Shown here: positions 11,731-61,369 of the stretch, one piece after another
Layout: the number at the start of each line of letters is the position of its first letter
How positions within the stretch are numbered: position 1 is the first letter of the stretch
Source: Amoebophrya sp. A120
Lineage: Eukaryota > Protista > Dinoflagellata
DNA: 64,000 nucleotides
NCBI GenBank assembly: GCA_905178155.1
Contig: CAJINV010000014.1
Span: 1,891,888 to 1,955,887, forward strand
Direction: 5' to 3'
The notes under the pieces: generated by a model
What the model was told of the DNA's origin: nothing
The model's database searches: none
The model's input: only the letters and a program-made list of their open reading frames with translations
Translations under genes and position numbers: made by a program

Positions 11731-14700
11731 TCAGTATAGCGTCCTCGAGTTCCAGGCCAAAAACGATATCGCCAGAAAGTACATCAGAAAGCAGTAAAAG
11801 AACAGCATCAGTGTCGAAAAGTACCAACTGAACCATATGACCTGCTCAAACGTTACAATCTCAAACGTTACAATAGAATCTGGGATTTGTCTTGCATGAT
11901 CAACATGACAGACTCGGACAGCGTTCCACTTTCTGCAATACAAATTTCGCCAGATTGTAGTGGGGTTTGGGGCTCCGGAACTTGTCATGCGCAATCCTAC
12001 AAGAGTTTGCTAGATCATGCAACTTTGCATCACAGATTTCCATATTCTATTGTAACAGTTGACATTGTAACAGCTGAGCGCGTTATAAACCACCACGCCT
12101 CGGCATCGGCGGCGGCAATGTCCATGCGGGCCCACCACGTATCCCTTGCTGTGACAAAAGTGGCGTAGTTCGTGACCGCCCGATCTTCGGAAACCGACCC
12201 GGCGTTTGGCGGTGGGTTGATACTCGCGAACCCAACCGACGGGTTGTTCAAAGTTCGGTCGTTGAGGATTTCCGTTGCCACCGAATCGTTGGTCGTGATG
12301 TACGCCATCACCTTCAAGCCGAACGTGCTGGGCGTGATGTAGGCAAACCAGGAGATCCAGGACGGCATCTCCCGGACGGGCCGGAAAGACCCGGAAAAGC
12401 AGGTGGGCAGGGTGGAAAGGAGCAGCGGCGCCATCATCAACGCCCGATCCGGCGCTTTCGCGTTGGCCGTGGAGAGCAAGACGCCGATCCCCGACCCGCT
12501 GATCCCGAGCAACAGGGCGATGGCCACCCACGCGAACCAGTTGCAGGGGAGCCCCCAGGCGACGTAGGGGATGGTCATGACAATGATGGTTTGGAGGGTG
12601 ATCAACACCAATTCCACCACGAGTTTCGCGACCATGTAGGCGGACACCTTGTACAGGTTACTGTGGTACTCGCGGAGAAACACCGGCCGCTCCTGCGGCA
12701 CGGCTAGGGAGAGAGCGCTCGACCCGGACATCAACACCACCCAGGCCGTGAAACCGGCGGCGCCGTAGATGTCGATGATTTTCGCGGTGTATTTCATAAC
12801 GAGAAACTTCGCGGTCCACGACTGCTCCGGCGTCATTTGGCCGGACTGGATCATCTATCCTGTGCAAAAGTATCGCACTCGTAGTAATCGCAATCATGCA
12901 TTACAAATCTCCCTCTTAACCGAAATCCGCATCACAAATTCCATTTTTCATGCTGAGGGAATTTGTCATGTGATTTATGCTAGTAGTACGATGCTTTTGC
13001 ATTGCATATCATCTCCAGGGTGATGGGCGTCATCGTGCTGCTGTCGTAGAACGCGGTCCCGTCGTTCTCGCTGCCGTCAACCAGCTGTCGACCTAGGTTG
13101 AGAAAGGACAAGGAGTAGAATAGAATCTGCAGGGTCGGAATCACGAAACGGAACAACAGGCCGAAGGGGTCCCGGTGGCGGTGTACCGTTTCGCGGTGAA
13201 GTAGCAAGCACAACTGCGAGCAAAAGCCCTGAAATTGTGCGGTCTCCAGCTCCATTTCGTTTGTGACCGGAATTTCTTGCAAGTACTTCGTGTGTTATGA
13301 GAGTGCACAACTCCCCCACCCACTCATTTGTGTTGCATGAAGAGCAACACAAGCGCTGGCAAAGATGTAGCTTTTGCGTGGCAAATTCCTAGAGGATTGT
13401 AGTGCTGTTTTGGATTCCGGAGTCTGTGATGCAAACAGTGCTAACAGGCAAAGCGTGGACTTGCAATTTTGCATGACAAATGAGGGGGAGGGGGAGTTGT
13501 GCACTCTCATATGTGTTTCGTTTGGTCCAGAAACTTCCTTTTCAAAGCGTTCGGCGCGACCCCGAGGGAGTATCAAATGTAAAAATGTCTGGGTCTGGAA
13601 GAACGCAACTTGTAATGCATATTTCAGAACACAGAAAAGTCTCTCATGCATACGTAGCAAAAGCTGCCCATTTTCTCTCAGCAAAATAGGGGATTTGTGA
13701 TGCGGATTCGGCATTGCGGAAGCTTTTCGAAACCTGTGATGCTAGAGCTTTCATGCCAGGCCTTCCGTGTCATGCAAAAACAGCATGACTCTTCCAGACC
13801 CAGACATTTTTACATTTGATAGGGAGGGCCACAGGACAATGTCTCTCGCCGCGACCCGACTGTCGTTCACGGGTTTTTTCGGATTGAAATTGTCGTTCCG
13901 CAGACTAGTGTTGGATATGCATTGCAAAAGTATTGTACTAGTAGAAATAGCAAGACAAATAATGCCAAGAAGAGAAGTAGAATTTGTAATGCTGATTTGC
14001 CTAAGATCGGAGATTTGTCATGCGTCACTGCAATTACTACGAGTACGATACTTTTGCAGTGGATATTGGACTCCTGTTTGTTTTTTGAATCGATCTCCTC
14101 GACTTCCTCCTCATCCTCTTCCCGAAAGGTGATATCAAATGTAAAAGTGTCTGGGTCTGGAAACTTGTGATGCTGGGTGGCGTCTCATGATGAGGCTACA
14201 GATGCTGGCTCAGCATCACAAGTTTCTGAGCTCCTAGGTGTTGCCTATTCTGCATGACAAACTGCGCTTCTGCATCACAGAAAGACGGAGCTCTTGGGTA
14301 ACGTGCATGACAGATTTAAGAGTCATGCCAGACAAGCATGACAAACATGAATTCTCTCAGGAGACCCTGACATTTTTACAGTTGATAGGTGAAGAGACCG
14401 TCCAAGGTCGGCTTCGCCGTGTTTGCTCCAAAGCCGCCCGTGGTTGTGTTGTTCGCTGAGGATGAATTTTGCGCTGTTCTCCTGGATGCAGTGTTATTAT
14501 TCCCGAAGGAGCTGCCCCCAACTCCGGCGCGCATAGAGCCCATCGTGTTTTGGTGCTTTTTCCAGGAAAAGCTCGACCTCCGGTCCATCGAGACCACGTT
14601 TACCACGAGGTACTCGTTCTGCGTTTTATCGATGCTGTAATCCAAGAGTGGCACCCGGGGGGTCACATACCCGGGGTTCAGAATTTCGTACGCGCGGGCC

Positions 14701-17163
14701 GTTTGCTCTATGGAAGCGTCAGGTTTGAAATCGTCAAAGTTGAAATAATTTGTAATGCTAAACCGACCGAAACCACTACACAACCTGTAATGCATAAAAT
14801 GCATGACCCGAGGTACGTGTGTTGCAGAGCAGGCAAGTGAGGCCGATTGTCAGCCTGTTTGGGGTTACAGATCGAGCTGCTAAAGTAGCATGAGAAAATC
14901 GCTCTTCTTTGCCTAAACAGCATGACAAACTGGATTTAAGGACCACCGAAATTTGTCATGCGCCACTTGGAAACTGGGTTCCAACTGGCATCCATTTTAT
15001 GCATGGCAAATTATTTCAACTCTGTCGATTTCAACTCTGACACATCCATATGCTCGATGATCTCCCTAATCTCCGCCTCGTCGAGCGACTTATCAAATGC
15101 AAAAATGTCTGGGTCTGGAAACTTGTGATGCAAGTCAGGGAGCAATGCAAACACTGTAATGCACTGCCAGGCATGACAAGTTTTTCCGTGTTTCTGAGTT
15201 GCGTACTCCGCATGAGAAATTTCGTTTTTGCATGACAGAGAAGGGAAGGGCTTTGGGGCCACGCAATACAGAGCTCAGAGTCATGCGAGACTCGCATGAC
15301 AAATCTCGCAACCTCCAGACCCAGACACTTTTGCATTTGATACGACTGCGCCAGGTGCAACAGCCAATCGGCGAGATTGAACTGCACCGGCTTTGGGCGG
15401 GCGCAGATCAACGCGAGGAACCCCGGGATTGTGAAGATCGGGATCATTTTCTCATTTTTGTACTCCTGCTGCTGCACCATGGCAAAGGGGACCCCGGTTT
15501 GCTGGTCGTCCTGCTGCGCCGTCTGGGCCATCACCTCTTCCAGCTTCTGGTCGAATTGCTGTAGCAAATCTTGTTTTGGCGAAATTGACGGGGACGAGCC
15601 ATTCGTCTTGGGATTTTGAATTTGATTCGCTTGTTGCAGCCCTGGTCTGTACCCGAAGGCAGTTGTTTGCCCGTCTGTCGCTGCAGTCGCAGAGTTTGTC
15701 AACAGCAGCTCCTGATCTCTATTTGGGTTATTTGTCATCGTATTCGCAGCACTTCCCGCCCCAACTGTGGGATACAAATACGCCTCGCCGCCGAATTGCG
15801 TCAAGATTGCTTCTGCGGTTTTCCCGTTGTAGCCCGAGAAAAGGATTTCCCCGTCCCGCATGCAAATGACGCGGTCGAATTGGTCGAAGAGTTCGCTGGA
15901 CGGCTGGTGAATGGTGCAACAGATGATTGCCCGTTCCGATTCCGCGATCTTTTTCAGCTCTTGCATCAGCTCGAGGGACGAAAAGGAATCCAGTCCAGAC
16001 GTGGGTTCGTCCAGAAACAGCACGGACGGCTTGTTCAACAGTTCAATCGCGGCGGACACCCGCTTTTTCTGCCCGCCGGAGATCCCTTTCGTCAACGCAT
16101 CCCCGATCGGGACGTTTTTCACGTGGTTTAGGGATAACGTGTCCATCACGTGCGCCACCGACTTTTTCATTTGGTCCTCGGTGGTGGTGGTTGGGAGCTT
16201 GAGTTTCGCAGAAAATTCCAGGGTTTCCTCCACCGTTTGCGACCCCAACAGCGCGTCTTGCTGCATCACATACGCGATCGAAGACTTCAGATCCTCGAAG
16301 CTGACCTCCTTCCCGCCGTACCGAATTTCCCCCGTCAGCTCCACCCCGTTCCCCTTCCACGCCTGCCGCCCGGCGAGCAGATTCATCAACGTGGACTTCC
16401 CGGCCCCGCTCGGCCCGATCAGCGCACAGACCTCGCCCGGATAGAGCTTGCCGTAGCAGTTGGTCAAAATGTTTTTCCTCTTCGGCTTCGCACCAACCGT
16501 GAAGGTCAAATTCCGCCACTCCAGGCACAGCTGCTGCTGCTCGAGCAATTCGTCACTGTCATGCAGATCCTTGTCTTGTTGCGCCAACAGTTGCATATTC
16601 GCCATCGGACTGTTGTTGTTTTGGAGGTTTTGGCCGAAGTTATTATTTCCTCCCCCGCCTGCATTTGTCAACATGTCCCCGACGCAGAAGGAATGTCTGG
16701 GGCTCAGTTTCACCCTATCCTGCACCATCGCCCGCAGTTGCGCCCGCTCGACGGCAGTCAAAGTCTGCGCTCTCCTTTCTCCAGCCTCCCTCTGCACCTC
16801 CTGCAGCGCGTCTATGTCGTGCATATTGGTCGTGATAGCAGTTGTAGTTCCCGCGTTCGGCGAGTTGTAGCCGTTGGAAGTAGAATTGGTGCGGGTGAGA
16901 AGGTGAAACCCCGTGGTGGCGGGGCTGGGATCGGACTTCGGGTGCTGGTAGGGAGAGGGGGACTGGGGAGAGGTCGTCGTGTTTTTGATTTCTCCTCCTG
17001 CAAGAAGTGCTCCGGTACTTGTACCACCGTCGTTTAGCTGCACATGCTTACTCTGCTTCCTGTTTCTTGCGTTTAAGGACCGGGATTTTACCAGGAGGCC
17101 ACGCTCGAGGAGGTCCGACTCCTCCGTATACGAGTTCATTTCGGGGTAGTTGTCGTGCGACAT
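11731..17163 (-). CDS. ABCG (White-family) half transporter, 9 exons separated by 8 introners
   Basis: Walker A GPSGAGKS, signature ISGGQKKR, LFLDEPTSGLD, CTIHQP; TM domain with ERPVFLREY. Exons 17163-15343, 15085-15051, 14703-14388, 14127-14066, 13910-13822, 13565-13512, 13290-13009, 12850-12088, 11830-11731 join in frame and end ...AWNSRTLY*. Confidence 0.95.
11836..12087. mobile_element. Introner, family F6 (~44-bp imperfect TIR with doubled GTTACAAT)
   Basis: DR aacca; frame restored (AWWF|SWYF). Confidence 0.88.
12856..13008. mobile_element. Introner, family F2 (TIR TATCCTGTGCAAAAGTATCGTACTCGTA)
   Basis: DR tcatc; frame restored (LEM|IQSG). Confidence 0.92.
13296..13511. mobile_element. 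Introner, family F5
   Basis: tatgagagtgcacaactcccc / ggggagttgtgcactctcata; DR tgtgt. Confidence 0.92.
13571..13821. mobile_element. Introner, family F1
   Basis: Perfect ~32-bp TIR; DR gggag. Confidence 0.93.
13916..14065. mobile_element. Introner, family F2 (reverse orientation relative to the 12856 copy)
   Basis: DR ttgga; frame restored (QES|NTSL). Confidence 0.9.
14133..14387. mobile_element. Introner, family F1
   Basis: DR ggtga; frame restored (GLFT|FREE). Confidence 0.9.
14709..15050. mobile_element. Introner, family F4 (TIR TATGGAAGCGTCAGG..TGAAAT..TCAAAGTTGAAATAATTT)
   Basis: DR tgctc; core near-identical to 52167-52473. Confidence 0.93.
15091..15342. mobile_element. Introner, family F1
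   Basis: DR cgact; frame restored (LAQS|LDEA). Confidence 0.93.
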
Positions 17164-18850
17164 TTTGTGTCGTAATACTGTTTGGACTTCAATATGCGAA
17201 TTCTAAACTGAAACTGATGTGCTAATTCCAATCCGGGTAGTACTACTCCACCTTTAGTCTCTTACTTTTTGTCGTCGGAAGAAAAATATCAGTTGATATG
17301 AGTTGTGCAAATACAAAGGTAAAAGGTAACTTTCTGCGCAAGCGCAGTCGGTATCTTCGCGTCTAGTAGAGGCATGAGATGCAATTATTTGTTGCTGTTG
17401 CTGTATGTTGGGATGTCGATTCAAGTGTCTTGCTCTTGCATTTGCACCACTGCAGTGCATGAGCTGCGATGTGGTACACTGATGAATACAGGAGTTCTTC
17501 AGATCTTCAGAAGATAATGCTTACAACACCGTGGTGATGCAGCTATCGAACGAGTTTGAGATCGTTCTCGTTTTGTTTACTTCGACAGTAAAAATGTTGT
17601 TGGAACGAGATGGAAATCCATCCACCTTACTTCAGCAGCCGCAAACTCAGCATCCTCGGTAGAAACTGGGTGGTCAGATACTGATCGAGGAGAACTACAG
17701 AGGTGGCAGATCTTTTTCCGTACATAACCGACTTCTACCATTCACGTTCTCGTTCTGGTGGAGAAAACCGAGGGAAGATGCAAAAAGAACCGAGATCGAG
17801 CAGCCACTTGGGTCATGAAACTCACAGGAGGCCACCAGCTCTTCACACTCATATTACATTCTCTGCGAGATCTATCAACATTAGAGCAATCTGGCTTCAT
17901 CACCTACAACATCGCGGTCTTTTATTCTCATGAACATGTTACGGTCATTTGCCTGTCATGAACAACATACCACTTCCACTCATTAATACTGCTCATGATG
18001 CTACATCTATTGGGTCAACACGACCACACTATCCTTCTTTACTGTGGCGCTAAGCAGATGTCCGCTGCGTGTCTGAAGAATCATGCGTTAATTGTGCGAG
18101 TGCGTTAAAGAGGTGAATCAGAAATCAAGCATCAATTTGCTTTGCTCGAGAAACAGATTTGCATGGATGCCAAAAAAGACATCTGCAAATCCTGCCCTGG
18201 GCGGCGAGTTTTTCTTCTCGATGATTTTTGCTTCTTTGTGGCAACTTCTTCTTTGCCTGAATGTTCCTGACCTTTTGCTTTGTTCCTGCTTCTTATTCTT
18301 TGATGAAAAAAATTGTCGCGTCGACTATGTCCTCGTGTGTAGAAGGTCCAAAGATAAAGCTCTAGCAGGCGGCTTGAGACAACATACAGCTACTTTCAGT
18401 TTGACTGTGCAAAACCGAAAGTAGAGGAAGTCGATGTCCAAAGAGCTGCATGTAGAAGTGATGACTTCCGTGCTAGCATTGTCTTTGCCGCAACAAGCAA
18501 AAAAAGCGTAAAAAGAGATGATGATGAAATCAACATGCTATGTTGTTTTTTTTTTTTCTGCATGCTCGTGGTGTAAGAAGACTTCTGGTTCTTGTGATGT
18601 ACAGTTTTCATTTTAGTCTTCTCCATTCTAGCCGTATGTTGTAATCATCTGTTGAACAAGACTTTTGAGTCGATTGCAGGCCGCCTTCGAGAGCTGCATC
18701 ATGTCCTGAGTTTTGCAAAAAAAGAAGAAATGTAAAGTCCGAAAGAAACTTCTGAAACAGCTCTTGATCATGGTTGGTCTTCTTGACGCAACATCCTCCT
18801 CTTCTTCATCCTCACACTGCATACTTCAAGTTCAACCAAGATTCTTTATT

Positions 18851-21800
18851 TTAGAAGTACGCCACATCCTTTTTCAAATCAAAGCCCAGCGCTTCCAGGT
18901 TTTTCTTGCAGGCAAATTCCACCATGGGCGGGGGGCCGCAGAGCAGAAACACCGGACTTTCCTCCTTCTTCGGCAGCAGTTTTGAAATCATCTCTTTCGT
19001 GATGAACCCCTTTTCGCCCGCCCACTTCTCCGGCGGAAAGTCGAGGGTGAAGTTGACGGAGATTTTTCCCTTCGACTGCTTTTCCAGATCTAGCAAAAGA
19101 TCCTTGACGAGGATGTCGGACTCCGTCTTATTGGCGTAGAGCAGGGAAAATTTCGTGTCATCCTTGGGATCCCGGCAGGCCGCCTGGAGGATCTGCAACA
19201 TGGGCGTGATCCCGGATCCACCGGCCATCATGCCGACAGACTTGTGCTTTCGGGTACCTGGGTAGTAGAAGATTTTTACACAGATTTCGTTTGTACCAGC
19301 AGCGATCACTTTTTTTGGACTTTCGTCTAAGATTTTTTTCGCAAAATTAAATACGACATTTTTATTTTAGTACCATCAGCGAATGCAAATCAACATCATG
19401 TCCAGAAGAACTACGGCTTGCGACGGTGAAAGAAGTAAAGAAAATGTGGCATCAGGCCATGGTAAAGTACTAGAAGATCAAGGTGAAAAATCGAATCATC
19501 CAAAGAAGCAACTACGGCTCTCGAAATAGAAAATCTCCGAGAATCTCTATTTGAAATAGAGATTCTCGGAGGAAAATAGAAATTCTCCATGAGAAATAGA
19601 ATCGCTGTCCTCTTTTTTCTTTCTTTTTCTTTCTTTTTTTTCTTTTACTGTTTCACTGTTTTCCCACGTGTTTTTCTTATATTTCAGCAGCTTCTCCACC
19701 AGTGGCGAAGCCGAAATAGAGATTCTCCATCTGAGATAGAGATTCTCTATCTCAGATGGAGATTCTCTATCTGAGATGGCTGCCAGGCTTTGCTAGGTTG
19801 CGCCTCGCTAGGCCAGCAGCCCTAGCAAGCCAGGCCGTGCTAGGCTAGGCTGGCAGCCCTAGCAACTAGCCTAGGCTGGCAGCCCAGCAGGCCAGGCTCT
19901 GCTAGGTAAGGCTGGCAGCCCACCAGCAGGCCAGGCTTTCGCTTTCTTTGTTGGGCAGCCCAGCAAGATCGGCGCTTGTTGCTCGGCAGCCACGCCGGCC
20001 AGGCTTTCTTTGCTAATGCTAGGCAGCCCAGCAAGCCAGGCTTCGCTAGGCAGCCCCGGCAGGCTAGAGGTAGCCCAATCATGCTAGGGGCAGCCTGCCC
20101 AGGAAGGCTACCGGCAGGCCAGGCCGTCTAGCGGCAGCCCCCCCCCCGCAGACGGGCAAGGTAGAGGCAGCCCGAGCAGGCTAGAGGCAGCCCCGCTTGC
20201 CAGGCGAGCAAGCAAGCGCGCTAGGCAGAGTAGGCTGGCAGCTCGTCCCCGCAGGCCCGGCCACTGCGCGCGCCAAAAAGTTTTGCTATCGGGCGGGCTC
20301 CCAGCCACCAAAACACGGGCGGGGCGCATGTCTTCCGGCCAATGGACATTCCATCACCCCCACGCGCACCCCCACACACAAAAAACTTCGCGGTGCCGCG
20401 CACCATCGAAAAGGTGCGATCCCGTTCCCATTCCCACCCACGCACCGCCCACGGCCCTGGGATGGTGCGCGAGAAAGGGAGGGGGCGGCCGCCCTGCCCA
20501 AAAGGAGCAAGAAGCGCCCGCGCCCAGTGCGCGAGTTTTTCTTTCCATTCCCATCACGGCGCCAGACGCAACACGCGGGCGAGAAGGGGCGCGCGGCCAC
20601 CGCCGCAAGACAATCTTTGTGACGCACGCCCACACCGACTAGATCTGGCGCGCGATACCGTAGGGGCGCGCGGCGCTCCTCGAAAATCTTTGCTAGACCC
20701 ACTTAGCGCGCGGCCCCCAACCCACGGCGCCAGACTCGGCACGCGAGAACGCCCGCGCGCCTGCCCGAAAGAAGGCCCACGCGCGCAGCGCGCGAAATTT
20801 TTTTTGGCCCCCAAAACGCCCGCCGCCACCTAGGTGTGGCGCGCGGAAAAAGGGGGCACTACCTAGAGAAAAAGCTCAGGCGGGCGGAGCGCGAGAACTT
20901 TTTTTTTCATTCCCGCGACCAACGCCGAGAAGCGCGGCGAATGAAAAAGAGCGCGCGCCGCCTGCTCCAACAAACAGACCCCAGACGCGCAGCGAGAGAG
21001 AATTTACGCCATTCCATCCATTCTTTCCAATCACGACACTCACACGGCCACAACCCGCGCGAGGGAATTTAACCCATTCCCCCCGCAGCACGCGCGCACG
21101 ACCGCAACGCGCGAGAGCTTTTTTTGTTCCCCAACAAATGCGCCGCCATGAATTCGATCGCAGATCGGCGCCAAGGGAGCGCGGAGAACGGGCGGCGGGG
21201 GTGCGCGGCCGCTCAGAGAAAAAGGCCCGCGCGCGCGCAGCGTGCGAAAATTTTTGGAATTCGCTTCCACATCGGCACCAAGCGCGCCGCGCGGGCGACG
21301 GGGGCGCGCGGCCGCTCGGAGAAAAAAACTCGCGCGCGCGCAGCGCGCGAAAATTTTTTGAACTCGGCGCCACGTCGCCACCGTGCGTGGCGCGCGAGCG
21401 ACGGGGATGCGCGGCCACCCAGAGAAAGAAAATTCGCGCGCGCGCAGCGCGCAAATTTTTTTTTGCTTCGATCCCACATCGCCACCAGGCGCGGAGCGCG
21501 GGCGGCGCGTTGAAAAACTCGCGCGCGCGCAGCGCGCGAAAGTTTTTGACTCTCGACACCACATCGCCACCATGCGCGGCGCGCGGGCGACGGGGGTGCG
21601 CGGCCGCTCAGAGAAAAAAACACGCTGGGAAAATTTTGTGAATTCGATTCCGCTTCGCCGCCAAGCGTGGCGCGAGGACGACGGGGGTGCGCGGCCACTC
21701 AGGCGAAAAAACTCGCGCGCGCGCAGCGCGCGAAAATTTTTGGAATTCGACTCCACACCGCCACCAAGCGCGGCACGCTGACGACGGGAGCGAGTGCCCG

Positions 21801-24310
21801 GCCGCTCAGGGAAAAAAAACTTGCGCGCGCGCAGCGCGCGAAATTTTTTTGAATTCGATCCCACATCGCCAGCAAGAGCGGCGCGCGGGGGGGCGGGCGA
21901 CGGGAGTGCCCGGCCGCTCAGAGAAGAAAACTCGCGCGCGCGCTGCCCGTGAATATTTTTTGAATTTTTTGAATTCGATCCCAAATCGCCACCCAGCGCG
22001 GCTCGCCGCCCAAAAAAAACGCAAACGCGAACGGAGCGAGCGAAGTCTGTTGGCTTCTTTTCTTTCCCAGCCTAGGCGTGGCTCCCGCGAAAAGGACTGC
22101 GTGGCCGCCCAAAAGAAAATCGATCCTCGTGCGCAGGCAGCGCGCGAAATTTCCATGCCCACGCGCCTGGCACGGCACTTGGGCGCCGCGCTGCCGTGAA
22201 GGAGCGCGCGCCTCCCCACGCGCTCAAAAGACAAAGCCCGCACGCGCAGCGGAGGTCAGGTTCATTCATTTCGATCAATACGCCTGGCAAGGTGCGCGTG
22301 AAGCAATGCGTGCCCGCACGCAAAAAAATAAAAAGCTCGCGCGTGCGCAACGCGCGAAAAATTAACCATTCAAACCACCCCACGCACTGCGTGTGCCGCG
22401 CGGGCAAGGGGGAGTGTGCGGCCGCTAATGAAAAACAAAAGCGCGCGCGCAAATTTATATTTTTCGATACCAGCACGCCGCAAGATGACGCGCGCGGGCC
22501 GGCGAAAAGGGGCGCCCGGCTGCTTACAAGAAAAAGCCAGCGCGCACGCAGCGCGCAGAAATTTTTTTCATTTCCGTCACGCCAGATGCCGCGCATAGGC
22601 GGGCAAAAGCACCCGGCCGCTCAAAAAGAAGCCCACGCGCGCACAATCTGCGGGAATATTCTTTATTTCCCCTACGCCGGCCGCCAGGTCGGTGCGGCAT
22701 TATTCTTTCTTTCCCCACAACTGACTGCGGGCAAAAAAAGAATGAAAAAGCTGAACCCCCAGAGGCCGGAACATGCACAGAAACTTGTTTCCCCGTCCAT
22801 GGGCACGGAATAAGAAGAGCACTTTGCAAAAGTCAAGCGAGAGGCGAACATCTCGCAGCCGCAACGTAGAGGCCCCGCGTTTACTTCCCCAAGGGTCGGA
22901 CCGTCACACTTGGGCTTTTGCGCCAGAGGAAGGCCAACAGCTTTTGCGCCAGGCAAAGGCGAAGATCAAACGCAATCGAAGACAAATCGGGGGCCGATAG
23001 ATTCGACGCGGGAGATTCTCTATAGGGAGAATCTCTATTGGGCGTCGGGAGAATTTCTATAATATTTTTTTTTTCTAGACATAACTACATCCGTGCAAAA
23101 ATAAAATACCAGAGATTCCCGGCAGCTTGAATTCCCCCTTGCCCAGGTAGTTCAGCAGCCCGAAGGGTCCGTCGATGGTGACGTAGTCGCCGACCTTCTT
23201 CTTGTCCAAAAAACACCCACTCATTTTTCCGCCGTCGGCCCAGTCCATTACCCGGCCGTCCGGCATGGTTACCTTGCCCGGTCGGTACATTTTTATCACA
23301 AGGTCCACGTATATCCTGAGTAGAAACGTACCCACACCAGAGTTGTAATGCAGATTTGCAAAGACAGGAAGACTTGTAATGCGCATCACCATGAGAGCCA
23401 TTTCTTCCCGTCCTTTTGGAATTTGTGATGCTGTAAACAGCATGAGCAGCTGGATTTGTGATGCGGCTGCACTTGCTAACCTGCACTACACTGCAGAGTG
23501 CAACTTGTCATGCGTGACTCACAAAACTCCTAGGTTTGTGTTGCAGAATCCCCATCCTGACTCTGGTGTGGGTACGTTTTTACTCAGGATAACGTAGCCC
23601 TTGACTTCATCCCCGGTCACCGGTGTGTAGGCGCGCTCGATCTGCTTCTTCGTCGCCTCGGGGTCCTCTCTATCCTGTGCAAAAGTATCGTACTCGTAGT
23701 AATCGCAATCATGCATTGCAAATCTTTATCCCAAGGCAAAATAGCATGACAAATTCCATTTGATGTTATGCGGAGCTAATTTGTATTGCAATTACTACTA
23801 GTACGATACTTTTGCAGTTCATACTCCCGCCCGTTCCAGGTCTTTTCGGATTTTGACAAAGCCGGATTCGGCGCGTACACCTGGAGATTCGTGGTTTTTG
23901 CACATTGCAAAGTAAGAACTTCTCAGCGCTGCTGCTGAAACGAATGTCTGCTCGTGGTTTGACACAAGGAATGACTGTACCTGCTTTTTTACAGAGATCG
24001 ACTAATAATCTCTGGTACTAGAACAAATCCTCTGCTGCAAGAAGTCTTTATATAGTACCTTGAAGTGCTTCCCCACTGGCAGGCCGAGTCTCATGCCGCT
24101 CCTCGGAAAAGCTAGTCGAATCTGCTTGGTATCTTCGCTAACATTGACGATCTGGCTGATTTGCAGCTCCGTTTTTTTCCTCTGTAAAACCACACCGCCT
24201 CGCTGGGTCTTGAACCAGAACACAAAGGTCGCAAGGATGGCAACCGCGGCGGAAATCAGTGGTGCCAAGGAGGCCAGGTCGATGTTGGCGAGTGTAGCGG
24301 GCGGAGCCAT
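18851..24310 (-). CDS. NADH-cytochrome b5 reductase, 5 exons
   Basis: N-terminal TM anchor, LGLPVGKH, RAYTPVT, DLVIKMY, GGKMS, GPFG, MMAGGSGITPMLQ, LLCGPPPM. Exons 24310-24059, 23880-23824, 23665-23592, 23306-23110, 19257-18851; GT-AG introns 24058-23881 and 23109-19258. Confidence 0.95.
19522..23061. repeat. Composite repeat island inside the 3.85-kb intron; possible non-autonomous element
   Basis: ATAGAGATTCTC/GAGAATCTCTAT motif clusters at both ends (19522-19780, 23010-23061); CTAGGCAGCC-type short repeats in both orientations 19780-20240; ~8 units of ~100-bp CGCG/A-tract tandem repeat 21190-21990. Confidence 0.7.
23312..23591. mobile_element. Introner, family F3 (reverse orientation relative to the 2539 and 5018 copies)
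   Basis: tatcctgagtagaaacgtacccacaccagag / ctctggtgtgggtacgtttttactcaggata; DR acgta; frame restored (KGY|VDLV). Confidence 0.93.
23671..23823. mobile_element. Introner, family F2
   Basis: DR ctctc/ctccc (4/5); frame restored (NGRE|DPEA). Confidence 0.9.
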
Positions 24311-50211: not shown

Positions 50212-52600
50212 TTAGTACGCAACCACCTCCGGCTCCATGTTGTCATTGCCCAAAGCGCTCTTCTTCCACATTTGGTCGACAAACGCGTCGGCCGCTTCCT
50301 CATCCTTGAACTTGATGATGGCTTTCCTGTTGTTTGTGATGCACAGAGCGATGAATGACGAGCAACATTGAAAATGTATGAATTGTCATTTTGCCGTAAA
50401 CTTCTAATTGTTGTCATGCGTCAACGAGGTATGCAAAAGTGGTTTCTCATGCTGGAATAATCATAAAGCAATCATAAGCAAGACAAAAATCTCTACCCGG
50501 CCTTGATCTCGGTGTGGGAAGGTTCGTATTTTGAGAACTCATCCTTCAAATCTTTCCACGTGACGGTCTCCTTGAAGCCGGCGATGTGGACCTGATAGAG
50601 TTGTGTAGTTTACCATGCAGAAAACCAAAACGTAGCCACAGTGTAGGAACCATCGTCGCAACTGCTGCATTTCAGGTCGTCATGCGTGCTGGCGCGCAAG
50701 AGCAAGTGAGTCTGTCTTGCAAGAATGTGATGAAATGTAGCGTAAATAAACAATACCGCAACTTCGCCTTCCCGGTCCTCGGACTTGCGTCCTGCCTTCT
50801 TTCCCTTTCCCTTGCTGCCCTTCTTTCCCTTGCCCTTGGAGCTGGACTTGCCCTCGATGTAGCGGCCCTCGCGGTCCTCACGCACGAAAACGGCGCGACC
50901 GTCGAGCTCCGTGTCGTTCAGTTCCTCGATCGCCTTCTTTGCGTCGTCCGGGTTCTTGTACCGAACCAAGCCCGCACCGGCAGAGCGTCCGTCCTTGGAC
51001 TTCAGGATATCGCAGTACTCGACCTGTTATATGTTTGGTTATTTTCCTCACGTTGGACTTCTTCTACTTGCACTGATGATATATTGATATGTCGTGCGCA
51101 GTAGATTCAACAAAACTACGTTTGACATTTAGATTTACATGGCCTGCTTGACGCTGCAAATGCAACATCCACATACTTTTCCATTTCCATTTGTGCTGAT
51201 CCTGATGCTGCTTTAGCATTAGAATGACAAATTGAAAGTTTACCTCGCCGGCGCTGACCATGTGGTCCTTGAGGTTTTGCCAGGAAGTGTAGTAGCTCAG
51301 GTTTCCATATGAACTGCAAAAGTATCGTACTCGTATAAATGCATTACAAATTTCCTCAGCATGAGAAATAAAATTTGTGATGCGGATTTACCGTAAGAAA
51401 AAGATTTGTAATGCATGACTGCAATACGAGTACGATACTTTTGCACAGGATATTCCAACGTACACTTGCGCGGCTGCGGAATCCTCGCTCAGCTGCTTGC
51501 CCTTACCTGTTTGTAGGTGTTTGTGGTAGTGTTTTATCCGCATGACGAAAGTATCATGATCTATTACCGCGCCGAAGCCGACGGGCCAGGCGGGTACGCT
51601 ACAATTACATAACGCACGAGCTGCGCTGCAAATGTGTCGTGTGTGCCTGCATTAGCGATGCGATAGTCGAAGGACATTTATCAAAATAACGCGATGCATG
51701 AGCGCGACTGTAAAATTTAAATTACCCTTGCTTCCCGGTCCCTTGCCGCCCTTCTGGTCGAGGCGCAGGAAGATTTCCCGGCCCTTCAGCACCTTATCTG
51801 CCATGGTGTCGATGGCCTTTTGTGCGGCATCCGCGTCCGCGAATCGCACGATACCGTGCCATATGGATTGTTAACATGTCTGGGTCTGGAAGAGTGAAAA
51901 AATTGTCATGCATATTTCTCATGACCCATGATAGTCTGTGATGTATGCCCTAGCATTACAGATTTTTAGAAATCTTCCTGATGCACCTTCCGCATGAGAA
52001 ATGCCCTCTCGCCATGGCAAAAACTGGACCCCTCTTGGTGGTCATGCATTACAGGTTTTTTTCGAATCCGAAAACAGCATCACAAGTTACAACCTTCCAG
52101 ACCCAGACATTTTTACATTTGATATGCCCGGTTTTTCGCCCGTCCTTGTACTGCAGCACCTCCGCGTATGGATGTGTCAGAGTTGAAATCGACAAAGTTG
52201 AAATAATTTGTCATGCATAAAATGCATGACCCGAGGCACGTTTGTTGCAGAGCAGGCAAGTGAGGCCGACTGTCAGCCTGTTTGGGGTTACAGATCGAGC
52301 TGCTAAAGTAGCATGAGAAAATCGCTCTTCTTTGCCTAAACAGCATGACAAACTGGATCTAGGGACCACCGCAATTTGTCATGCGCCACTTGGAAACTGC
52401 GTTCCAACTGGCATCCATTTTATGCATTGCAAATTATTTCAACTTTGACGATTTCAAACCTGACGCTTCCATACCGCGTGCTCGAAGGATTCCCCCACTT
52501 CTGAGTTCTTGAAGAACTCCTTCAACTCTTGCCAACCAACCTGGAAGGACAAGTTTCCACAGAACACGCTGCGGCTGCCGGCGTCAGTTCCCTCGGTCAT
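50212..52600 (-). CDS. Three-RRM RNA/G-strand-binding protein (Gbp2/Hrb1/hnRNP-M-like), 8 exons
   Basis: SVFCGNLSFQVGWQELKEFF, QVYVGNLSYYTSWQNLKDHM, VHIAGFKETVTWKDLKDEF, LDGRAVFVREDR; GT-AG introns 51725-51507, 51243-51024, 50762-50592, 50496-50327 plus 3 introners. Confidence 0.9.
51308..51452. mobile_element. Introner, family F2 (reverse orientation relative to 12856 and 23671)
   Basis: DR ttcca; frame restored (VYVG|NLSY). Confidence 0.93.
51862..52124. mobile_element. Introner, family F1
   Basis: DR tgcca/tgccc (4/5); frame restored (KTG|HGIV). Confidence 0.9.
52167..52473. mobile_element. Introner, family F4
   Basis: DR ccgcg; frame restored (EHA|EVLQ). Confidence 0.93.
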
Positions 52601-53159: not shown

Positions 53160-56100
53160 CACAAGCGATCGATTGAACCACGGACCAAGGGCGCACGTGC
53201 GTCGGGCTCAGCGTGAATTCTGCGAGGCCAATGACGTCACTGATTGAACACGCGAGCGGTCTGTCACTTTCAATCCACTTCTTGCCTTGCGGCCGCTGTT
53301 ATTCATTGATGGCCCCAGCCAGCTTGCAACTACCGGTAGGCATAATAGGCACATACGGGCATGATCGGCGGACAAACGGGCCAGCACACAGGTAGGCGCC
53401 CCAATCGGTCCCAATGCTTGGCCGGCAGGCAACACTCGGGGAAAAATCAGCTGCCTTCAAATTAACAGCCCAAAGCCGAGGCCAGGCGGCGCAACGGGGC
53501 GGCGCTGAGGACAGATCGGATCGCGTGCCCCAAGCCTGCTAGGCTGCCGAATGTAAGCAAGAATCGCGCTGGCCCGGGGAAGCAAATTTCTTTGCAGGCA
53601 CACACGCTCGGCCCGCCCGGCCGCGCGCTCGGAAAAGGCCCGCAACCAAAGAAAGGCCCGCCGAAATAAACCAGCCGGCGCTGAGTGTGCGACAGCTGCT
53701 AGCAGGGCCCCACAGGGCGCCCACATACAGGGGCGCAGCCCCGGGAAGGGCGCCCGCCGCCAAGCGGTCCGGCCGCCCCGACCCACCGCAGCGGAGCGGG
53801 GGGGGGCGGCAGGCCAATCGGGGCCCGGCCTATGATCGGGGCCCGGCCTATCGGGGCCCGCCCCTCCCCCCGGCCAGGCGAAGGGCCCGCGCATCGCGAA
53901 AAACGCGGGCGGCGCCGGCTTCGCTGCAGCGGGATCGGTCCCGACCACTTCCCGCCTCGGACATGGAAGAGCGCCAGGCCGCCGGCCAACGCGCAGCGAT
54001 GTATTCGGCATCTCGGCGAAGTCCAGGGCCTTGCCCCCGCCTAACAAAATAGGGGCGGGCGCCGCGCGTTGCAGCACAGGCACAACCCTGCGCGCGGGCG
54101 GGCGCGCGCCTCATGCGGAAAACGTCAACCAGATCGGCCGCCAGTGGGCTCGAATTATAAAAATTCATGCCGGGACTTTCGAAAAACTTTCGGAGAAGAA
54201 AAAAATCCCGCCCGAAGGACGTGGTGGCCCGAGATCTGCGACGAATCCACGGGCCCAGGGAAGGCAAAGATAAAAGGAGGGCGCAGGCGAAGGTGAAAAA
54301 GGGAAACCCCAGAAAGAAAAAGGGCCGGCCGAGGGAAGCACAACAGCGGGGGCGCCGGCCCCTAAGAAAGGCCAAGGGGCTGTCAAGCAGCGGGCCACGA
54401 CCCACATACTCCAAATTGAACTTCATACCCAGGCGGGACATTTGCAGTTTTTTTCTGCATTTCTTACGACCAATCATCTGTCAATCATCTGTCAACCATC
54501 TGTCAAAAAAACGGAAAAAAATTGAAAAAAGACGACAAACCCCAAACCATAGGGATTTCTAAGCCGTTTTGCTCACGACAATTTTTTTTGAATTTTTTTG
54601 AATTTTTTTAAATTTTTTGTCGTAATAAAAATTTTTTTTGTCGTAATAAATTACCGGCTCCGCGTTCCAAATCCCGGAAAAAAACCCGGCCGGCCGTCGG
54701 CAACAAACAACTGCCCCTCCCGCGGGCGCGGAAGAATCCTGGGGAAAAACAAAAGAAACCGGGGGGCTCGGCACTCTTCCGGCAAAACGCGAACCACCCC
54801 AAAGGCCCAGCACACCCAAAGGCACACACGGAAGCCGCGAAGGACGAGGGGCAATACGGAAAATGTAGAAACCCCCATCATCCGCGCCCGATTTTTTTTC
54901 GAAAGAGAAGTCGCGGGCGAATTTTTTCAAAGTCGCGCCATGAATTTTTATAATTTGCCGGGACTGGGGCCCGATCTGGTTGAAAAACGCCCGGGCGGTC
55001 CCGGCATCTAAAAATCTTCTAATTTTTCCGGTCTTGCAAAAAAAGCAAGGACCCAAAACCTTGGGTGGCAGGCCCATGGGAATGAAGAGGTCGGCGCCGA
55101 AGCCAAAAAAAGAAAGAGGTGACGCGGCACAAAGACAAGAGCTCGACAATGACGGCAGGGCAACCCCGGACAGGGAGGCAATATCGAAGAAGAGAAGACA
55201 AAGCAAGAGATCACCCCGAACACCTGCACATCGGATCATGTCCACGACCAGTTGGTGACGACGATCCGATGTGAAGGACGGGATGATCTTCGAAACCCAC
55301 CCGACAAGCGCCAACTCCTACAGCGAGCCTCTAATCTCGGCCTCTAAAACAGGCCTCTAATTTCGGCCTCTAAAATCGGTCTCTAAAACCGGCCTCTAAA
55401 GCCGGTCTCTAAAATGGGCCTCTAAAATCGCCCTCTAAAACCGGTCTCTAAAACCGGTCTCTAAAATGGGCTTCTAAAACCGCCTCTAAAATCGCCTTTA
55501 ATTTTCCCTCTAAAATGTCCTATAATTTCTCCTCTAAAACCCACCTCTAATTCGTTCTCTAAAAATCTTCTAATTCTGTTGTGTGTGCGGCAATTTGAGA
55601 ACTACTAAAAGTTCTCTAAAATTGCCGCACACACAAAATCCCGCACAAAATCACTATTTTGTGGTTTTAGAAGATGAGATGGAGGAAATCCGGACGCCGA
55701 AAGCGGAAGCGAAACCGGAAGATTTCCGGTTCACTTCCCGGGCAGCTCATGTTCGTGCTCGAAATCATCGAGCAACATCTCGATATTTTCGAACACGAAC
55801 ATCAGCGTCGTCCGACTGATCGATAATGAACAACACCACACACCATGTCTCACCCAATGACATGCGGAAGCAACCACCTTGAAATCTGAAGCCACAATGC
55901 GTGCGGGGGCAAGCGCCACTTCAGATCTGCTCTTTGACTACCAAACACCCTCCCCACCAAGCGAACGACCTCACTGCCGCCCCGACCCACAACTTTTGCC
56001 ACTCTCAATACAGTCTCACACACACAACCAAAATCTTGCGGCGCCGATTATGGAAACAAAACGGCCCGAATTTATAAATTTTAATTGAAGTGGAGCGCCA

Positions 56101-57153: not shown

Positions 57154-60100
57154 TCACGATTCCTCCTCCAAAAACTTCGACTTTAACTCCCACACCGGCA
57201 TTTTTTTCCCCGCAACTTCCCCGATGCTCATGTCCGCGATGTCTTGCAAGTGGCTGCGGATCTCGAGGAACAGTGGGGAGGTCTGGTACCCCTTCACCGG
57301 CAGCTGAAACCACTTCCGCAGATGCAGTGGCGAGCACTTCTCCTCGTCGTTGCTGTCTAAACGCAGTTGCCGCATCTGCTTCACCAGCGTCGGTCGGATC
57401 TGCTCAATTTTTTGCTCCAACTCCTTACTGATTCCCGTTTTCTCCCGCTTTTTCTGTTTCGCTCGTTCTGCTTGTTCCTTTTTCTTCTTCTCCAAAGCCG
57501 ATAACTCCTGCTTGGTCATGGTGGACACCTCGGTCTTGTTCAGCAGGGATTTGGAGCTCAAGATCGCCTTCGCGGAATTCACATCGGTGTCATCAACTAG
57601 TACACCAGCCTGATGCGGATCATCCGGAGATGATGATGATGATGATGAAAAATTTGTGCTGCTCTTTAACCTTCTCAATGCCTCCTTGATATCGGCGGAA
57701 AGCATGTCGTCGTTGATCTTCATGAGTTCCTCTTGCTGTTCACCACTTTTGTCTGTTTTGCCGTCGTTGCCACCACCTCCGGCGCTCTTTTTCGTTTTCT
57801 TGGAAACAAGTTTATTTGGCCTCTTTATCATCTTCCCGTCTGCATCGATGAGAACTTCATCCTCTAGATCTTCCTCGTCGAAGTTGGTTCGTCTCCTCTT
57901 TCTGCCTGTAGTCCCGTCTTTTTCGACGTAGTTCCCGCCGTCCTCAGTCCCGGACTCATCGTCTGTATGACTAGTATTCCCCTCGCGATCATCTTCCCCA
58001 TCTCTCCCTCTCGGATTCACTTCTCTGTCCAGCGTTTCCTCCCCCTCTAACACCCCATTCGCGTCCGGCTTGTTCAACAAAATCTCCTCCTGCACAGCAG
58101 CGTCATCCCAGCCGACCAAGTGATCCGCCTCGTCGTTCGCGTGCTCCAGGGTTTCGTCTCCCAAATCCACATCCCCAGCACCACTCCCCGCCAGCCCCGT
58201 GCCGTCCAAGTCTTCGGTTGACAGGCCGGAATAGTGCGTCGAGCTGTAGAAGTGCTCCGCGTGTCCGTTGTTGCTGCCATTGTTTCCCCCGTTCATGGAG
58301 AGAAAAGTCGATCCCGCGTTGTGACACAAGTCGGCGCGCTGGGTGAGAACGATGTTCAACCGATTCAAAGCGTAGCGCTCCAGCTGACGCCACTCCTTCT
58401 GTCGCCGTTCCTTGCGCTTCTTCATCACCAGTTCCGCGTCTTCCAGCGTGTACAGCTTCTCTACTTTTGATGATGACGGAAGGTTGTAGGGGGTGCCACT
58501 GCTGCTGGTGGAAGAAGCTGTTGTTCCTGCGATAGTACAAGAAGAGCCGGTGGACGAGTTGTGGGTGTGCTTTGTCGTGGAAGTTCGGGTCGTTGAGGTC
58601 GTGACAGACGAGCGCTCATCGTCGGAAAGTGGTTTTTTACTTTCACCACCTAGTGGTGAGGTTTGTCCTTTCTCTACTGCGCTTTGGGAAGCACCACGAA
58701 CCTGCTGTTGTTTCTGTGCCTGCGACAGCGCAAGCGCTCTTCTGCTGTCGTTTCTGATCTTGTAACTCGGCGCTAGATCCTTCACCAAAGCCCGGGGGCA
58801 GTCCGGCTCCACTTCCGTGTAAAAATTGTGCAGCACGGCTTGTTGCTCGATTTGCGCCGCTGACGAATGTGAAGCTGATGATCCAAAAGATTTTTTGCGT
58901 TCTTGCCGGGCAGCAAGATGTTCTTGTTGACCAGCCTCTTCTTCCCGTACGGGCTCCTGCACAGCACAACTATCAAAGTCGTGATAATTCCTGCAATACT
59001 GCTGGAGATGCACGGTTTTGAACACCGGCACCAAATCTGCCACGTCCGGCTCCATTTTCGAGCGTACAACCTGCCAGGCAATGGGGAGATCGGGGACGGA
59101 TCCGCTCGCCTCGGTCGCGACAAAACGCTTTGGAGATGATGATGAGGAAGCAGAACTGATAGTAGAACCGTGCGGCTTCTGTTGATCTCTTGTTCCTCGG
59201 GATTCTTGTTGCTGCCCTATCCTCCTGTCGTTTACGTTTTTCAGTTCAAACAACCGAGTCGTCTTCCGCCCTTCGAGCATCTCTTTCAATCCCGGGACGT
59301 TGTGACCTTGTTCGCCGCCCATTTTCTCCAATCGCGCCGCCGTGGAAACGCAGACGGCGTCCAGTAAGCGTTCGCTCTGGGCTGGGGTCGAGTTTGGGAA
59401 ATTTACCTTCCCCACGAACTTCTTCAGGCAGTTCGTCATTTTGTCCTTGGATTTCTGGACCCGTTTGCGTCTCCTCAACCACTCCGCCATCTTTCGCATC
59501 TTCTCGGCTCTCGTTAGGTTTCTCGGCCGCTTTTCCAGCATGGAGGACGCTGCGACCCACTGGTGCTCCTGCTCCTGCTGCTCTTTATTTATTCCGGCTG
59601 GTGTGCTGCTGGCACTGTCGTTGTTCATTTTCATCCCTTGTTGCTTCCTCCAGGTAAATTTCTGTTTCGCTACCTGGGCAATGGTGGCTGGAGCCTCCTC
59701 CTGTACTAGATGATCATCACTATCATGATGCGCAGGACCAGGAGCTCCTGAGGATGGTGCGACCGTACTTCCTGTGTTCATCAAACTAGCCGACGAGGAC
59801 TCTCCTCCTGCTGAAGACCCGACTGAATTCGGCCAGAGGCGGTCGGCGGGAGACGTTGAGCTAGTAGGGACTGTGGATGATGATGAGGTCGTGTTGCAGC
59901 AGCTTCCTTGCTCGAACACGTCGTTGCTCGTCATGCTACAACCCAGAGCACTGTGCATCCCGGTTGACAAACTGGCGACTTCGCGGAAACAACTTTCTTG
60001 CTCATGCTCAACATTCACATCGCCATCGGTACTATGATCTTCCCCAGCAGCTGATCCTCCTCCTCTTATTCTTCTTCCCGCCGCCAGAATCGCCTCAAAC

Positions 60101-61369
60101 TCTTTCCCCGAGAAATTCACATCTTCGGCCAACTTCACCAGACAGGGGTTATTATTTTCTCCGGTAGAAGTTGTTCTTGAAGACGGAGGACAAGCTTTCG
60201 ATGGGATTTGCGATGCTAGGAGAGGAACTAGAGGCACAGCAGGTCCACGACTTTTGTGCGCTCTCCGATTTGCGACCGCGACGGCGTTCGCTAAAACTTG
60301 TTGCCGCAGCTGCAACATCCACTGTGGCAAGCGAATTCGGAGTTTTAGACCTGGGGGAAGGTTGTTGTTCTCGGGCCGCAGTGGTTCTTGTTGGTCATGC
60401 GAGTGAAGGCCTTCGGCTTCGTCGAGGAGGACCTCTCCTTCTTCCTCTGCTGCTGGGTCGACATCACCAGGAACAAAATCGTGCTCTGTTTGCTCAACAT
60501 CATCCCGAGGTCCTCGCGTGGTAGTCCGTCTCCGTGATGCTGATGAAGAAAAACTAGATGGTGCAGACTCTGGTCCACTCGTAGTTCTTTCGTCCGCTGC
60601 GGAAGTTGGCCTAGAAGATGTTGCTCTTCCTCTTGCGTCTTGTTCTATGTGTTCTTGATCTTTGTAGGTTACAACTTTCTTCTATCAAACAAAAAAAGTT
60701 CGTCACGATCACTCATGCGCATTTTTGCAATACAAAACTGTTTGTCATGCGTCAAAATGCATCACAGCCAAACTTCATTAGAGATTTCCCTAGTGTTTCT
60801 GCAATACAAGGAAACTTTGTGATGCTGAGACAATTTGTAATGCAAAACCTGCAAGTTAGTGACTGTGACAAACTTTTTTCTCTCCATATCTTCACCTCGC
60901 GCAGAATCTCTCCGTCGCCAAACAAGTCGTCCGGATCATCGTCAACATCTACTTCGTATCAACTGTAAAAATGTCTGGGTCTGGAAGATTCCAACTTGTC
61001 ATGCTGATTTTGGATTCTAAAAAAATCTGCATTGCATGAGCAGCAAAGAGAGCCCAAGTTTTGCTACACGGAAAGAGCATTTGTCATGCGGTATAGGCAT
61101 CCGGAAGCCCTCACAAAATCTGTGATGCTAGGGCATGCATCACAGACATCAGGAGTCATCCAAAATGTGCATGACAAGCCTGGCAATCTTCCAGACCCAG
61201 ACATTTTTACATTTGATACTTCGACCTTATCTTGCTTTGATGTCGTCCGTTGTTCCGCTTGGATCATGTCCAAGTTTTCGCTTGCTTCCTCATCGTCGCG
61301 GTCACTGTCGTCGTTGTCGCTGATTACAGGATCGTCGTCCTCGTAGAGACGGGCGCTACTAACCGCCAT
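57154..61369 (-). CDS. Large acidic/low-complexity protein (~1250 aa), possibly TFIIF alpha (RAP74)-like; 3 exons
   Basis: Exons 61369-61219, 60951-60889, 60677-57154 join in frame. YTLEDAELVMKKRK resembles RAP74 LTLEEAEE..K.R, followed by an acidic tract and a compact C-terminal helical domain. The CDS is solid; the identity is tentative (~0.3). Confidence 0.8.
60683..60888. mobile_element. Introner, family F7
   Basis: tatcaaacaaaaaaagttcgtcac / gtgacaaacttttttctctccata; DR tcttc; frame restored (EVK|KVVT). Confidence 0.88.
60957..61218. mobile_element. Introner, family F1 (reverse orientation relative to 907 and 51862)
   Basis: DR cttcg; frame restored (KVE|VDVD). Confidence 0.93.

What the first reader, a model, noticed from the sequence alone, without database searches (positions are those of the whole stretch)
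12856..61218. Same introner families are inserted in both orientations relative to transcription
Seen: all host genes are on the minus strand, yet family cores point both ways. F2 copies 12856 and 23671 are the reverse complement of 13916 and 51308. F3 copy 23312 is reversed relative to 2539 and 5018 (gtcaagatggggactc vs gaatccccatcctgac). F1 copy 60957 is reversed relative to 907 and 51862. Established: spliceosomal donor, branch and acceptor signals are directional. Inference: removal depends on the symmetric TIR stem and DR. It could be structure-guided RNA processing (analogous to euglenid non-conventional introns) or DNA-level excision (analogous to ciliate IES with pointers).
Basis: partly seen in the sequence, partly recalled or inferred. 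Interest (0 to 1): 0.8.

Follow-up and report, generated by a model that had tools for sequence, protein, structure and literature searches.

The report
Strand-blind transposon introns in Amoebophrya
These are the already published mini-transposon introns of the marine parasite Amoebophrya A120: they sit in genes facing either way about equally often, stay in the DNA and are missing from the transcripts, so they are likely cut out of the RNA by something that reads their symmetrical ends rather than normal splice signals.

Summary
The window is Amoebophrya sp. A120, and the elements are its published introners (Farhat 2021): TAT…ATA terminal inverted repeats (TIR) with 5-bp target-site duplications (TSD). 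Reversed cores are real. In a second assembly orientation is about 50:50 (99:88; 55 of 242 uncalled). RNA-like contigs lack element plus one TSD exactly, for F1 and F2 in both orientations, while DNA contigs run into the elements without a break. Excision from DNA is therefore unlikely. What is unusual is that only 16 of 261 copies have any GY–AG register, the TSD has no motif, and the ends show no polarity. The TSD decays as fast as the TIR. Best reading: RNA cut-and-join positioned by the terminal stem, likely non-spliceosomal (0.5); a modified spliceosome is the close rival (0.35). The system is known; the orientation statistics were not found in print.

The parts
907..1172 (.). F1 introner, orientation A, in a kinase-like gene (minus strand); 5-bp TSD
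   Evidence: not tested on RNA
13571..13821 (.). F1 introner, orientation B, in the ABC transporter gene
   Evidence: absent from RNA-like contigs by length sum
14133..14387 (.). F1 introner, orientation A, ABC transporter gene
15091..15342 (.). F1 introner, orientation A (weaker call: 62 vs 36), ABC transporter gene
51862..52124 (.). F1 introner, orientation A, RRM gene; TSD copies differ at transcript position 1 and the annotated protein keeps the upstream base
60957..61218 (.). F1 introner, orientation B, in a 1251-codon restored frame
   Evidence: not tested on RNA
12856..13008 (.). F2 introner, orientation A, ABC transporter gene
13916..14065 (.). F2 introner, orientation B, ABC transporter gene
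23671..23823 (.). F2 introner, orientation A, cytochrome b5 reductase gene; TSD 4 of 5
51308..51452 (.). F2 introner, orientation B, RRM gene
2539..2824 (.). F3 introner, orientation A; 291 nt (element plus one TSD) skipped in an X6 contig
5018..5308 (.). F3 introner, orientation A
   Evidence: not tested on RNA
23312..23591 (.). F3 introner, orientation B, cytochrome b5 reductase gene; exact removal gives the annotated protein, colinear with homologues
   Evidence: not tested on RNA here
14709..15050 (.). F4 introner (same orientation as 52167 and 63280)
52167..52473 (.). F4 introner, 94% identical to 14709 over 265 nt
63280..63593 (.). F4 introner
11836..12087 (.). introner outside F1-F4; 257 nt (element plus one TSD) skipped in an X3 contig
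13296..13511 (.). introner outside F1-F4, ABC transporter gene
5351..5559 (.). introner outside F1-F4, TSD 4 of 5
6230..6453 (.). introner outside F1-F4, TSD 3 of 5
1629..1817 (.). weaker introner candidate, TSD 4 of 5
41964..42510 (.). long (547 bp) introner with an inner inverted repeat
60683..60888 (.). introner outside F1-F4
11369..17202 (-). ABC transporter gene (ABC_tran and ABC2_membrane) carrying eight introners; removal restores 1186 open codons

Best explanation
These are non-autonomous DNA transposons with terminal inverted repeats that lie in exons facing either way, remain in the DNA and are absent, with one target-site copy, from transcript contigs; they are likely removed from the RNA by a non-spliceosomal cut-and-join positioned by the predicted terminal stem. 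Shown: anatomy, both orientations, exact removal length, retention in one DNA sample, lack of GY-AG and of end polarity. Inferred: a cut-and-paste transposase inserted them without regard to strand (TIR and TSD; no transposase was seen). Inferred: after transcription the two arms pair, closing at UAU/AUA whichever strand is read; a nuclease cuts both TSD copies in the same register at a fixed distance from the stem base, and a ligase joins the exons, so one TSD is left and the frame is restored. The enzyme is not identified. RNA-level, end-defined removal by either machine is about 0.85; the non-spliceosomal version is about 0.5.
For: Exact removal: record gaps of 0, 487, 35, 839 and 0 nt equal the genomic gaps minus the sum of (length+5) in 5 of 5 gaps examined, covering nine elements, among them F1 A and B and F2 A and B. 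An X3 contig also skips a canonical GT-AG intron, which supports its being cDNA. Orientation in assembly JACKZZ01: F1 70:55, F2 19:16, F3 8:13, F4 2:4, none different from 50:50. Only 16 of 261 copies have a GY…AG register among the six possible cuts; the TSD has no motif. No position among the first 45 differs between the 5' arm and the mirrored 3' arm (180 tests, smallest p 0.025), and branch-like motifs are no commoner on the sense strand (132 vs 150; CTRAY 26 vs 29). The terminal stem is predicted in 256 of 258 copies on the sense strand. At 51862 the annotated protein keeps the upstream base at TSD position 1, and one X6 contig suggests the same for position 2 at 1629, so the intron likely ends in unconstrained TSD letters. 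U1 was not detected in A120 (PMC7789003 section 10). Euglenid analogues are released as circles without a lariat (review PMC11282704 section 6).
Against: No sign of selection on an RNA helix: G·U 244 against A·C 246 in the arms, 4 against 6 at the terminal three pairs, and sense and antisense folding energies are equal (-92.4 and -91.7 kcal/mol, p 0.24). The symmetry is what a transposase alone would leave, so it does not prove that the stem is read. A120 keeps nearly all spliceosome proteins and U2, U4, U5 and U6, and Fritillaria removes TIR-derived non-canonical introns with its spliceosome. The RNA evidence is assembled contigs from two samples of one study whose RNA status is a guess by the tool; seven of the nine elements are shown only through length sums; efficiency by orientation could not be measured. 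The cut register rests on two junctions.
Confidence: 0.5

Rival explanations
1. A modified U2-type spliceosome removes them. The TIR (as stem or as end motif bound by a new factor) replaces U1 and AG recognition; because each orientation carries the same ends, direction is supplied by transcription alone.
For: Either-orientation introners with spliceosomal sites are known in Polarella and Aureococcus. Fritillaria's spliceosome handles TIR-derived non-GT/AG introns. A120 has 83 of 89 spliceosome proteins and U2, U4, U5, U6. Every copy has a U-rich run 11-14 nt before its 3' end in either orientation. Canonical introns are spliced in the same transcript set.
Against: No fixed donor or acceptor dinucleotide in any register (16 of 261 GY-AG). 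No sense-strand excess of branch-like motifs. No orientation bias, whereas the either-orientation Polarella classes 6, 8 and 10 all show one.
Confidence: 0.35
2. The elements are excised from DNA, like ciliate internal eliminated sequences with pointers, before the genes are transcribed.
For: TA-containing ends, TIRs and short direct repeats; strand symmetry and G·U equal to A·C fit a double-stranded DNA substrate.
Against: In DNA-like run X1, error-free contigs at unique-sequence depth (23-31) run from exon into element at 19 of 28 ends with at least 20 nt on each side (12 of 28 with at least 31 nt); the other ends had no listed contig. A second assembly also retains the elements. No germline/soma split is known in Amoebophrya (my own knowledge), so excision would be inherited. 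The TSD decays. Limits: contigs drop rare variants, X1 may be the source of the window, and one life stage may be all that was sampled.
Confidence: 0.04
3. RNA polymerase skips the element during transcription, jumping from one TSD copy to the other across an extruded template hairpin.
For: Would be strand-blind, needs no splice signals and removes exactly the element plus one TSD.
Against: Needs matching repeats, yet 44 of 228 TSD pairs are imperfect and TSD mismatch rises with arm mismatch (rho 0.21, p 0.002). Element sequence is present in the RNA-like runs, though the source copies are unknown.
Confidence: 0.05
4. The removal is a reverse-transcriptase slippage artefact (falsitron) at a hairpin flanked by direct repeats; the mRNA keeps the elements and they are handled at translation.
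For: A hairpin flanked by short direct repeats is the described falsitron signature, reaching up to 70% of cDNA reads (PMC8240250, passages). All RNA evidence seen here and in the sections read is cDNA.
Against: One 4123-nt contig lacks all eight elements of the ABC transporter gene. 15 of 22 window elements shift the frame and most carry stops in all frames, so a retained element would need ribosomal bypass at each site. Imperfect TSDs are tolerated.
Confidence: 0.04

Closest known systems
Amoebophrya A120 introner elements (Farhat et al. 2021, PMC7789003; abstract, sections 10, 11, 12, 16, 20, 32, passages, supplement text search)
   Same: Same organism (P0121 and P0178, 100% identical, are named A120); IR starts TAT, seven looser bases, then at least three A; 3-5 nt direct repeats (5 bp in the legend of Fig. 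S19); non-canonical ends; RNA-seq support; hairpin model; mechanism left open.
   Different: The parts I read say nothing on element orientation relative to transcription (every 'orientation' passage shown concerns gene orientation). Here: 50:50 orientation, exact length+5 removal, no end polarity, TSD decay and DNA retention were measured.
Polarella glacialis and Aureococcus introners (Roy et al. preprint 10.1101/2020.10.14.339549, passages; Huff 2016 not held, known only through that preprint)
   Same: TIR/TSD transposons that make introns, several classes in either orientation.
   Different: They carry or recruit GT/GC/GA and AG sites and need TSD motifs (GHNN, AGGH); classes 6, 8 and 10 are biased to one orientation. 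Here there is no such site, no TSD motif and no bias.
Euglenid and diplonemid non-conventional introns (PMC11282704 section 6; PMC12621601 passages)
   Same: Non-canonical ends, end-to-end pairing, TSD-like repeats, likely MITE origin; an RNase III plus ligase route has been proposed for diplonemids.
   Different: Unrelated lineage; euglenid junctions follow a pyrimidine|purine consensus with CAG/CTG in the stem. Circular products are reported there and untested here.
Fritillaria borealis non-canonical introns (review section 6; bioRxiv 10.1101/2025.08.15.670264 passages)
   Same: TIR/TSD-derived introns without GT-AG.
   Different: Preferred AG-AC and AG-AT ends, and removal by a modified spliceosome; no preferred dinucleotides here.
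IS3EU/GingerRoot DNA transposons (PMC10045372, passages)
   Same: TA..TA termini.
   Different: Their TSD is usually 6 bp; here it is 5 bp. No transposase is in hand, so this is a lead only.
Ciliate IES / scrambled-gene pointers (recalled, no call)
   Same: Short, TA-ended, repeat-flanked insertions in coding sequence.
   Different: Those are cut from somatic DNA; these stay in the DNA sample examined.

Membership tests
Amoebophrya A120 introner elements | Lies in the A120 genome | tested here: met
   P0121 and P0178 are 100% identical to window exons and named Amoebophrya sp. A120
Amoebophrya A120 introner elements | IR beginning TAT, seven looser bases, at least three A | tested here: met
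   A at positions 11-14 in 82-96% of 261 copies; TAT at both ends in 228 of 254 copies found without requiring it
Amoebophrya A120 introner elements | 3-5 nt direct repeat at the boundaries | tested here: met
   5-bp TSD perfect in 18 of 22 window copies and in 184 of 228 copies overall
Amoebophrya A120 introner elements | Repeated, and absent from transcripts | tested here: met
   372 distinct copies; nine window copies absent from RNA-like contigs
Canonical U2 spliceosomal intron | GT/GC donor and AG acceptor | tested here: not met
   16 of 261 have any such register
Canonical U2 spliceosomal intron | Sense-strand branch point motif | tested here: not met
   no sense excess; a degenerate motif inside the TIR cannot be excluded
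Canonical U2 spliceosomal intron | Lariat intermediate, spliceosome dependence | not testable with these tools
   no raw RNA reads covering these genes (X9 had depth in 2 of 30 bins)
Euglenid-type non-conventional intron | Ends paired in a stem, non-canonical junctions | tested here: met
   predicted stem in 256 of 258; prediction only
Euglenid-type non-conventional intron | Pyrimidine|purine junction consensus | tested here: not met
   TSD positions show no consensus
Euglenid-type non-conventional intron | Released as full-length circle without lariat | not testable with these tools
   needs raw or RNase R-treated reads
Ciliate-type IES | Element-free DNA version exists | tested here: not met
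   X1 contigs cross 19 of 28 ends without a break; one sample, rare variants dropped
IS3EU/GingerRoot | TA..TA termini | tested here: met
IS3EU/GingerRoot | 6-bp TSD | tested here: not met
   5 bp
IS3EU/GingerRoot | Cognate DDE transposase | not tested
   no whole genome was held; no autonomous copy was sought

The most novel reading that the evidence does not exclude
Amoebophrya runs a second, spliceosome-independent mRNA splicing pathway: a ruler-type nuclease and ligase that reads only a transposon's terminal hairpin, is blind to strand and to target sequence, and makes tens of thousands of exon insertions silent. It would be a general tolerance system against TIR transposons, evolved separately from the euglenid one.
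Probability: 0.45. Interest if true: 0.85.

Novelty: already known. Interest (0 to 1): 0.42.

Why it matters
How Amoebophrya removes about 60% of its introns without GT-AG has been open since 2021. The measurements here narrow it: the core is dispensable in direction, the target sequence is free, the repeat need not be perfect, and the DNA keeps the element. That confines the signal to about 30 nt at each end and gives a minimal reporter design. It also means family searches that require the same orientation (the filter described in PMC12130899, passage) would split or miss about half of each family. It is a useful constraint on a known system and not a new system.

Tried and rejected
No whole genome was held, so the wider sample is 146 loci of one metagenome assembly, all fetched through an exact F1 end pattern; F1 is over-represented and one of its ends is forced. 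Whether that assembly is the same strain is unknown: the 40 longest BLAST hits to the window were element hits. The pattern found nothing in viral contigs. A second read lay gave no result, so the cut register at TSD positions 3 and 5 and direct RNA evidence for 907, 5018, 23312, 23671, 51308, 51862 and 60957 stay open. The joint table was swamped by other copies (1351 rows not shown), so the absence of an exon-exon joint in DNA from that table was not used. G·U versus A·C and sense versus antisense folding found no RNA-level selection. A k-mer strand scan gave nothing clear (smallest p 4.5e-4 in 119 four-mer tests, borderline after correction). Element-plus-TSD length modulo 3 was 106/66/89 of 261, confounded by family lengths and not interpreted. 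Huff 2016 was not held. The earlier-findings look-up was empty. Searches for a published orientation analysis (finds) found none for Amoebophrya. Supplementary figures of PMC7789003, datasets of PMC12130899 and PMC9860276, bioRxiv supplements and subscription papers were not seen and may bear on this.
Full report
Identity. Two window exons are 100% identical to proteins that NCBI names Amoebophrya sp. A120, a cytochrome b5 reductase (P0121) and an RRM protein (P0178). Farhat et al. 2021 (PMC7789003; I read the abstract, sections 10, 11, 12, 16, 20, 32 and passages) describe A120 introners whose inverted repeats start with TAT, then seven looser bases and at least three A, flanked by 3-5 nt direct repeats, with RNA-seq support and an unresolved splicing mechanism. 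The window's elements fit this description.

Anatomy. I mapped 22 TAT…ATA elements of 145-547 bp; 18 have a perfect 5-bp TSD, three have 4 of 5 and one has 3 of 5. The TSD differs at every site. Removing element plus one TSD restores long minus-strand frames, among them 1186 codons across eight elements in an ABC transporter gene. Fifteen of the 22 would shift the frame if kept.

Observation. The groups are F1 {907, 14133, 15091, 51862} against {13571, 60957}; F2 {12856, 23671} against {13916, 51308}; F3 {2539, 5018} against {23312}. The three F4 copies face one way.

Wider sample. An F1 end pattern fetched 146 loci (421 kb) of assembly JACKZZ01. A detector found 372 distinct elements in loci plus window (241 real against 12 in shuffles of the same loci). 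Sixteen with fewer than 3 of 5 TSD matches were dropped and 99 belonged to none of F1-F4. For the 242 non-window F1-F4 copies, host strand (codon model trained on the window) and core orientation gave F1 70:55 (31 uncalled), F2 19:16 (7), F3 8:13 (15), F4 2:4 (2); no family departs from 50:50 at any threshold tried. Host strand there is inferred, not annotated.

RNA or DNA. In one search, contigs of runs X3 and X6 (RNA by the tool's guess; two samples, one study) skip the elements. In 5 of 5 gaps examined the record gap equals the genomic gap minus the sum of (length+5): 0, 487, 35, 839 and 0 nt. This covers nine elements, two directly and seven by sums, and includes F1 and F2 in both orientations. 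An X3 contig also skips a GT-AG intron and X3 depth falls to zero between genes, which supports cDNA. For the reversed F3 copy 23312, and for 23671, 51308, 51862 and 52167, exact removal reproduces the annotated proteins, and three homologues are colinear across the 23312 junction; the annotation is transcriptome-based according to the paper, so this is indirect. In DNA-like run X1, error-free contigs at depth 23-31 pass from exon into element at 19 of 28 ends (12 with at least 31 nt each side), and one 6.7-kb contig holds two elements whole. An abundant element-free DNA form is therefore absent from that sample; rare or stage-specific forms are not excluded. Splicing efficiency could not be measured from contigs.

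What the ends say. In transcript orientation (261 copies) the 5' and 3' junction profiles are mirror images, the TSD has no motif, and only 16 copies have any GY…AG register among the six cuts that remove length+5. No position among the first 45 shows polarity, branch-like motifs are not enriched on the sense strand, and there is no base skew. A terminal stem is predicted in 256 of 258 copies. Against my reading: G·U and A·C mismatches are equal (244 and 246; terminal pairs 4 and 6 of 11 called), and the sense strand folds no better than the antisense, so selection on an RNA helix is not shown. TSD pairs are imperfect in 44 of 228 copies found without a TSD filter; mismatch per site is 7.4% against 8.0% in the arms and the two correlate (rho 0.21, p 0.002; some of the worst cases may be misplaced ends). 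A perfect repeat is therefore not required. At 51862 the annotated protein keeps the upstream base at TSD position 1, and one X6 contig starting at 1818 without a mismatch suggests the same for position 2 at 1629. These two cases suggest that the intron ends in unconstrained TSD letters.

Both orientations work, so nothing directional in the core is needed. That does not exclude a spliceosome, because a TIR offers the same ends on both strands. The Polarella preprint reports several classes that make spliceosomal introns in either orientation, as in Aureococcus (passages), and the 2022 survey allowed for opposite-orientation insertions (PMC9860276, passages and section 8). What sets A120 apart is the lack of any fixed donor, acceptor or TSD motif together with no orientation bias.

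Mechanism. I favour RNA-level removal defined by the ends (about 0.85). Within that, a stem-positioned nuclease plus ligase (0.5) fits the missing dinucleotides, the missing polarity, the undetected U1 and the euglenid and diplonemid parallels. A modified spliceosome (0.35) fits the nearly complete spliceosome and the Fritillaria precedent. Polymerase jumping (0.05), DNA excision (0.04) and a reverse-transcriptase artefact (0.04; falsitron paper, passages) are disfavoured as set out above. No enzyme was identified, and no transposase was sought; TA..TA ends recall IS3EU/GingerRoot but the TSD is 5 bp and not 6.

Novelty. The elements, their non-canonical removal and the hairpin idea are published for this genome. 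Six library searches and finds in five papers and one supplement text showed no orientation analysis for Amoebophrya; figures, datasets and subscription papers were not seen. Verdict: a real feature of a known system, with a likely unpublished and useful constraint. Interest 0.42.

Noticed in passing
run X9, at window 13571 and 13821: Raw RNA reads of a run that does not cover the window's genes join an F1 end directly to one foreign exon-like flank (51 and 19 reads): one F1-like copy appears to be retained in RNA in that sample.
   Followed up: no
window 41964-42510: A 547-bp element with an inner inverted repeat (42105-42348); possibly a nested insertion.
   Followed up: no
window 54125-54983: An inverted repeat about 800 bp apart with A-rich and T-rich inner arms; not TAT/TSD type.
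   Followed up: no
window 19500-22800: Region of about 3 kb with 20-bp palindromic units and GC-rich repeats at roughly 100-bp spacing, lying between genes.
   Followed up: no
window 55292-55499: Tandem array of a 13-bp unit.
   Followed up: no
window 1-218: Inverted repeat built of 11-12 bp tandem units at the window start; no 5-bp TSD.
   Followed up: no
window 14709-15050 and 52167-52473: Two F4 copies 94% identical over 265 nt, pointing to recent activity; the JACKZZ01 loci hold F4 in both orientations (2:4).
   Followed up: partly
all elements: The fourth base of each end is C or G in 97% of copies but often does not pair with its partner (145 of 242 Watson-Crick): a sequence constraint and not a pairing one.
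   Followed up: partly
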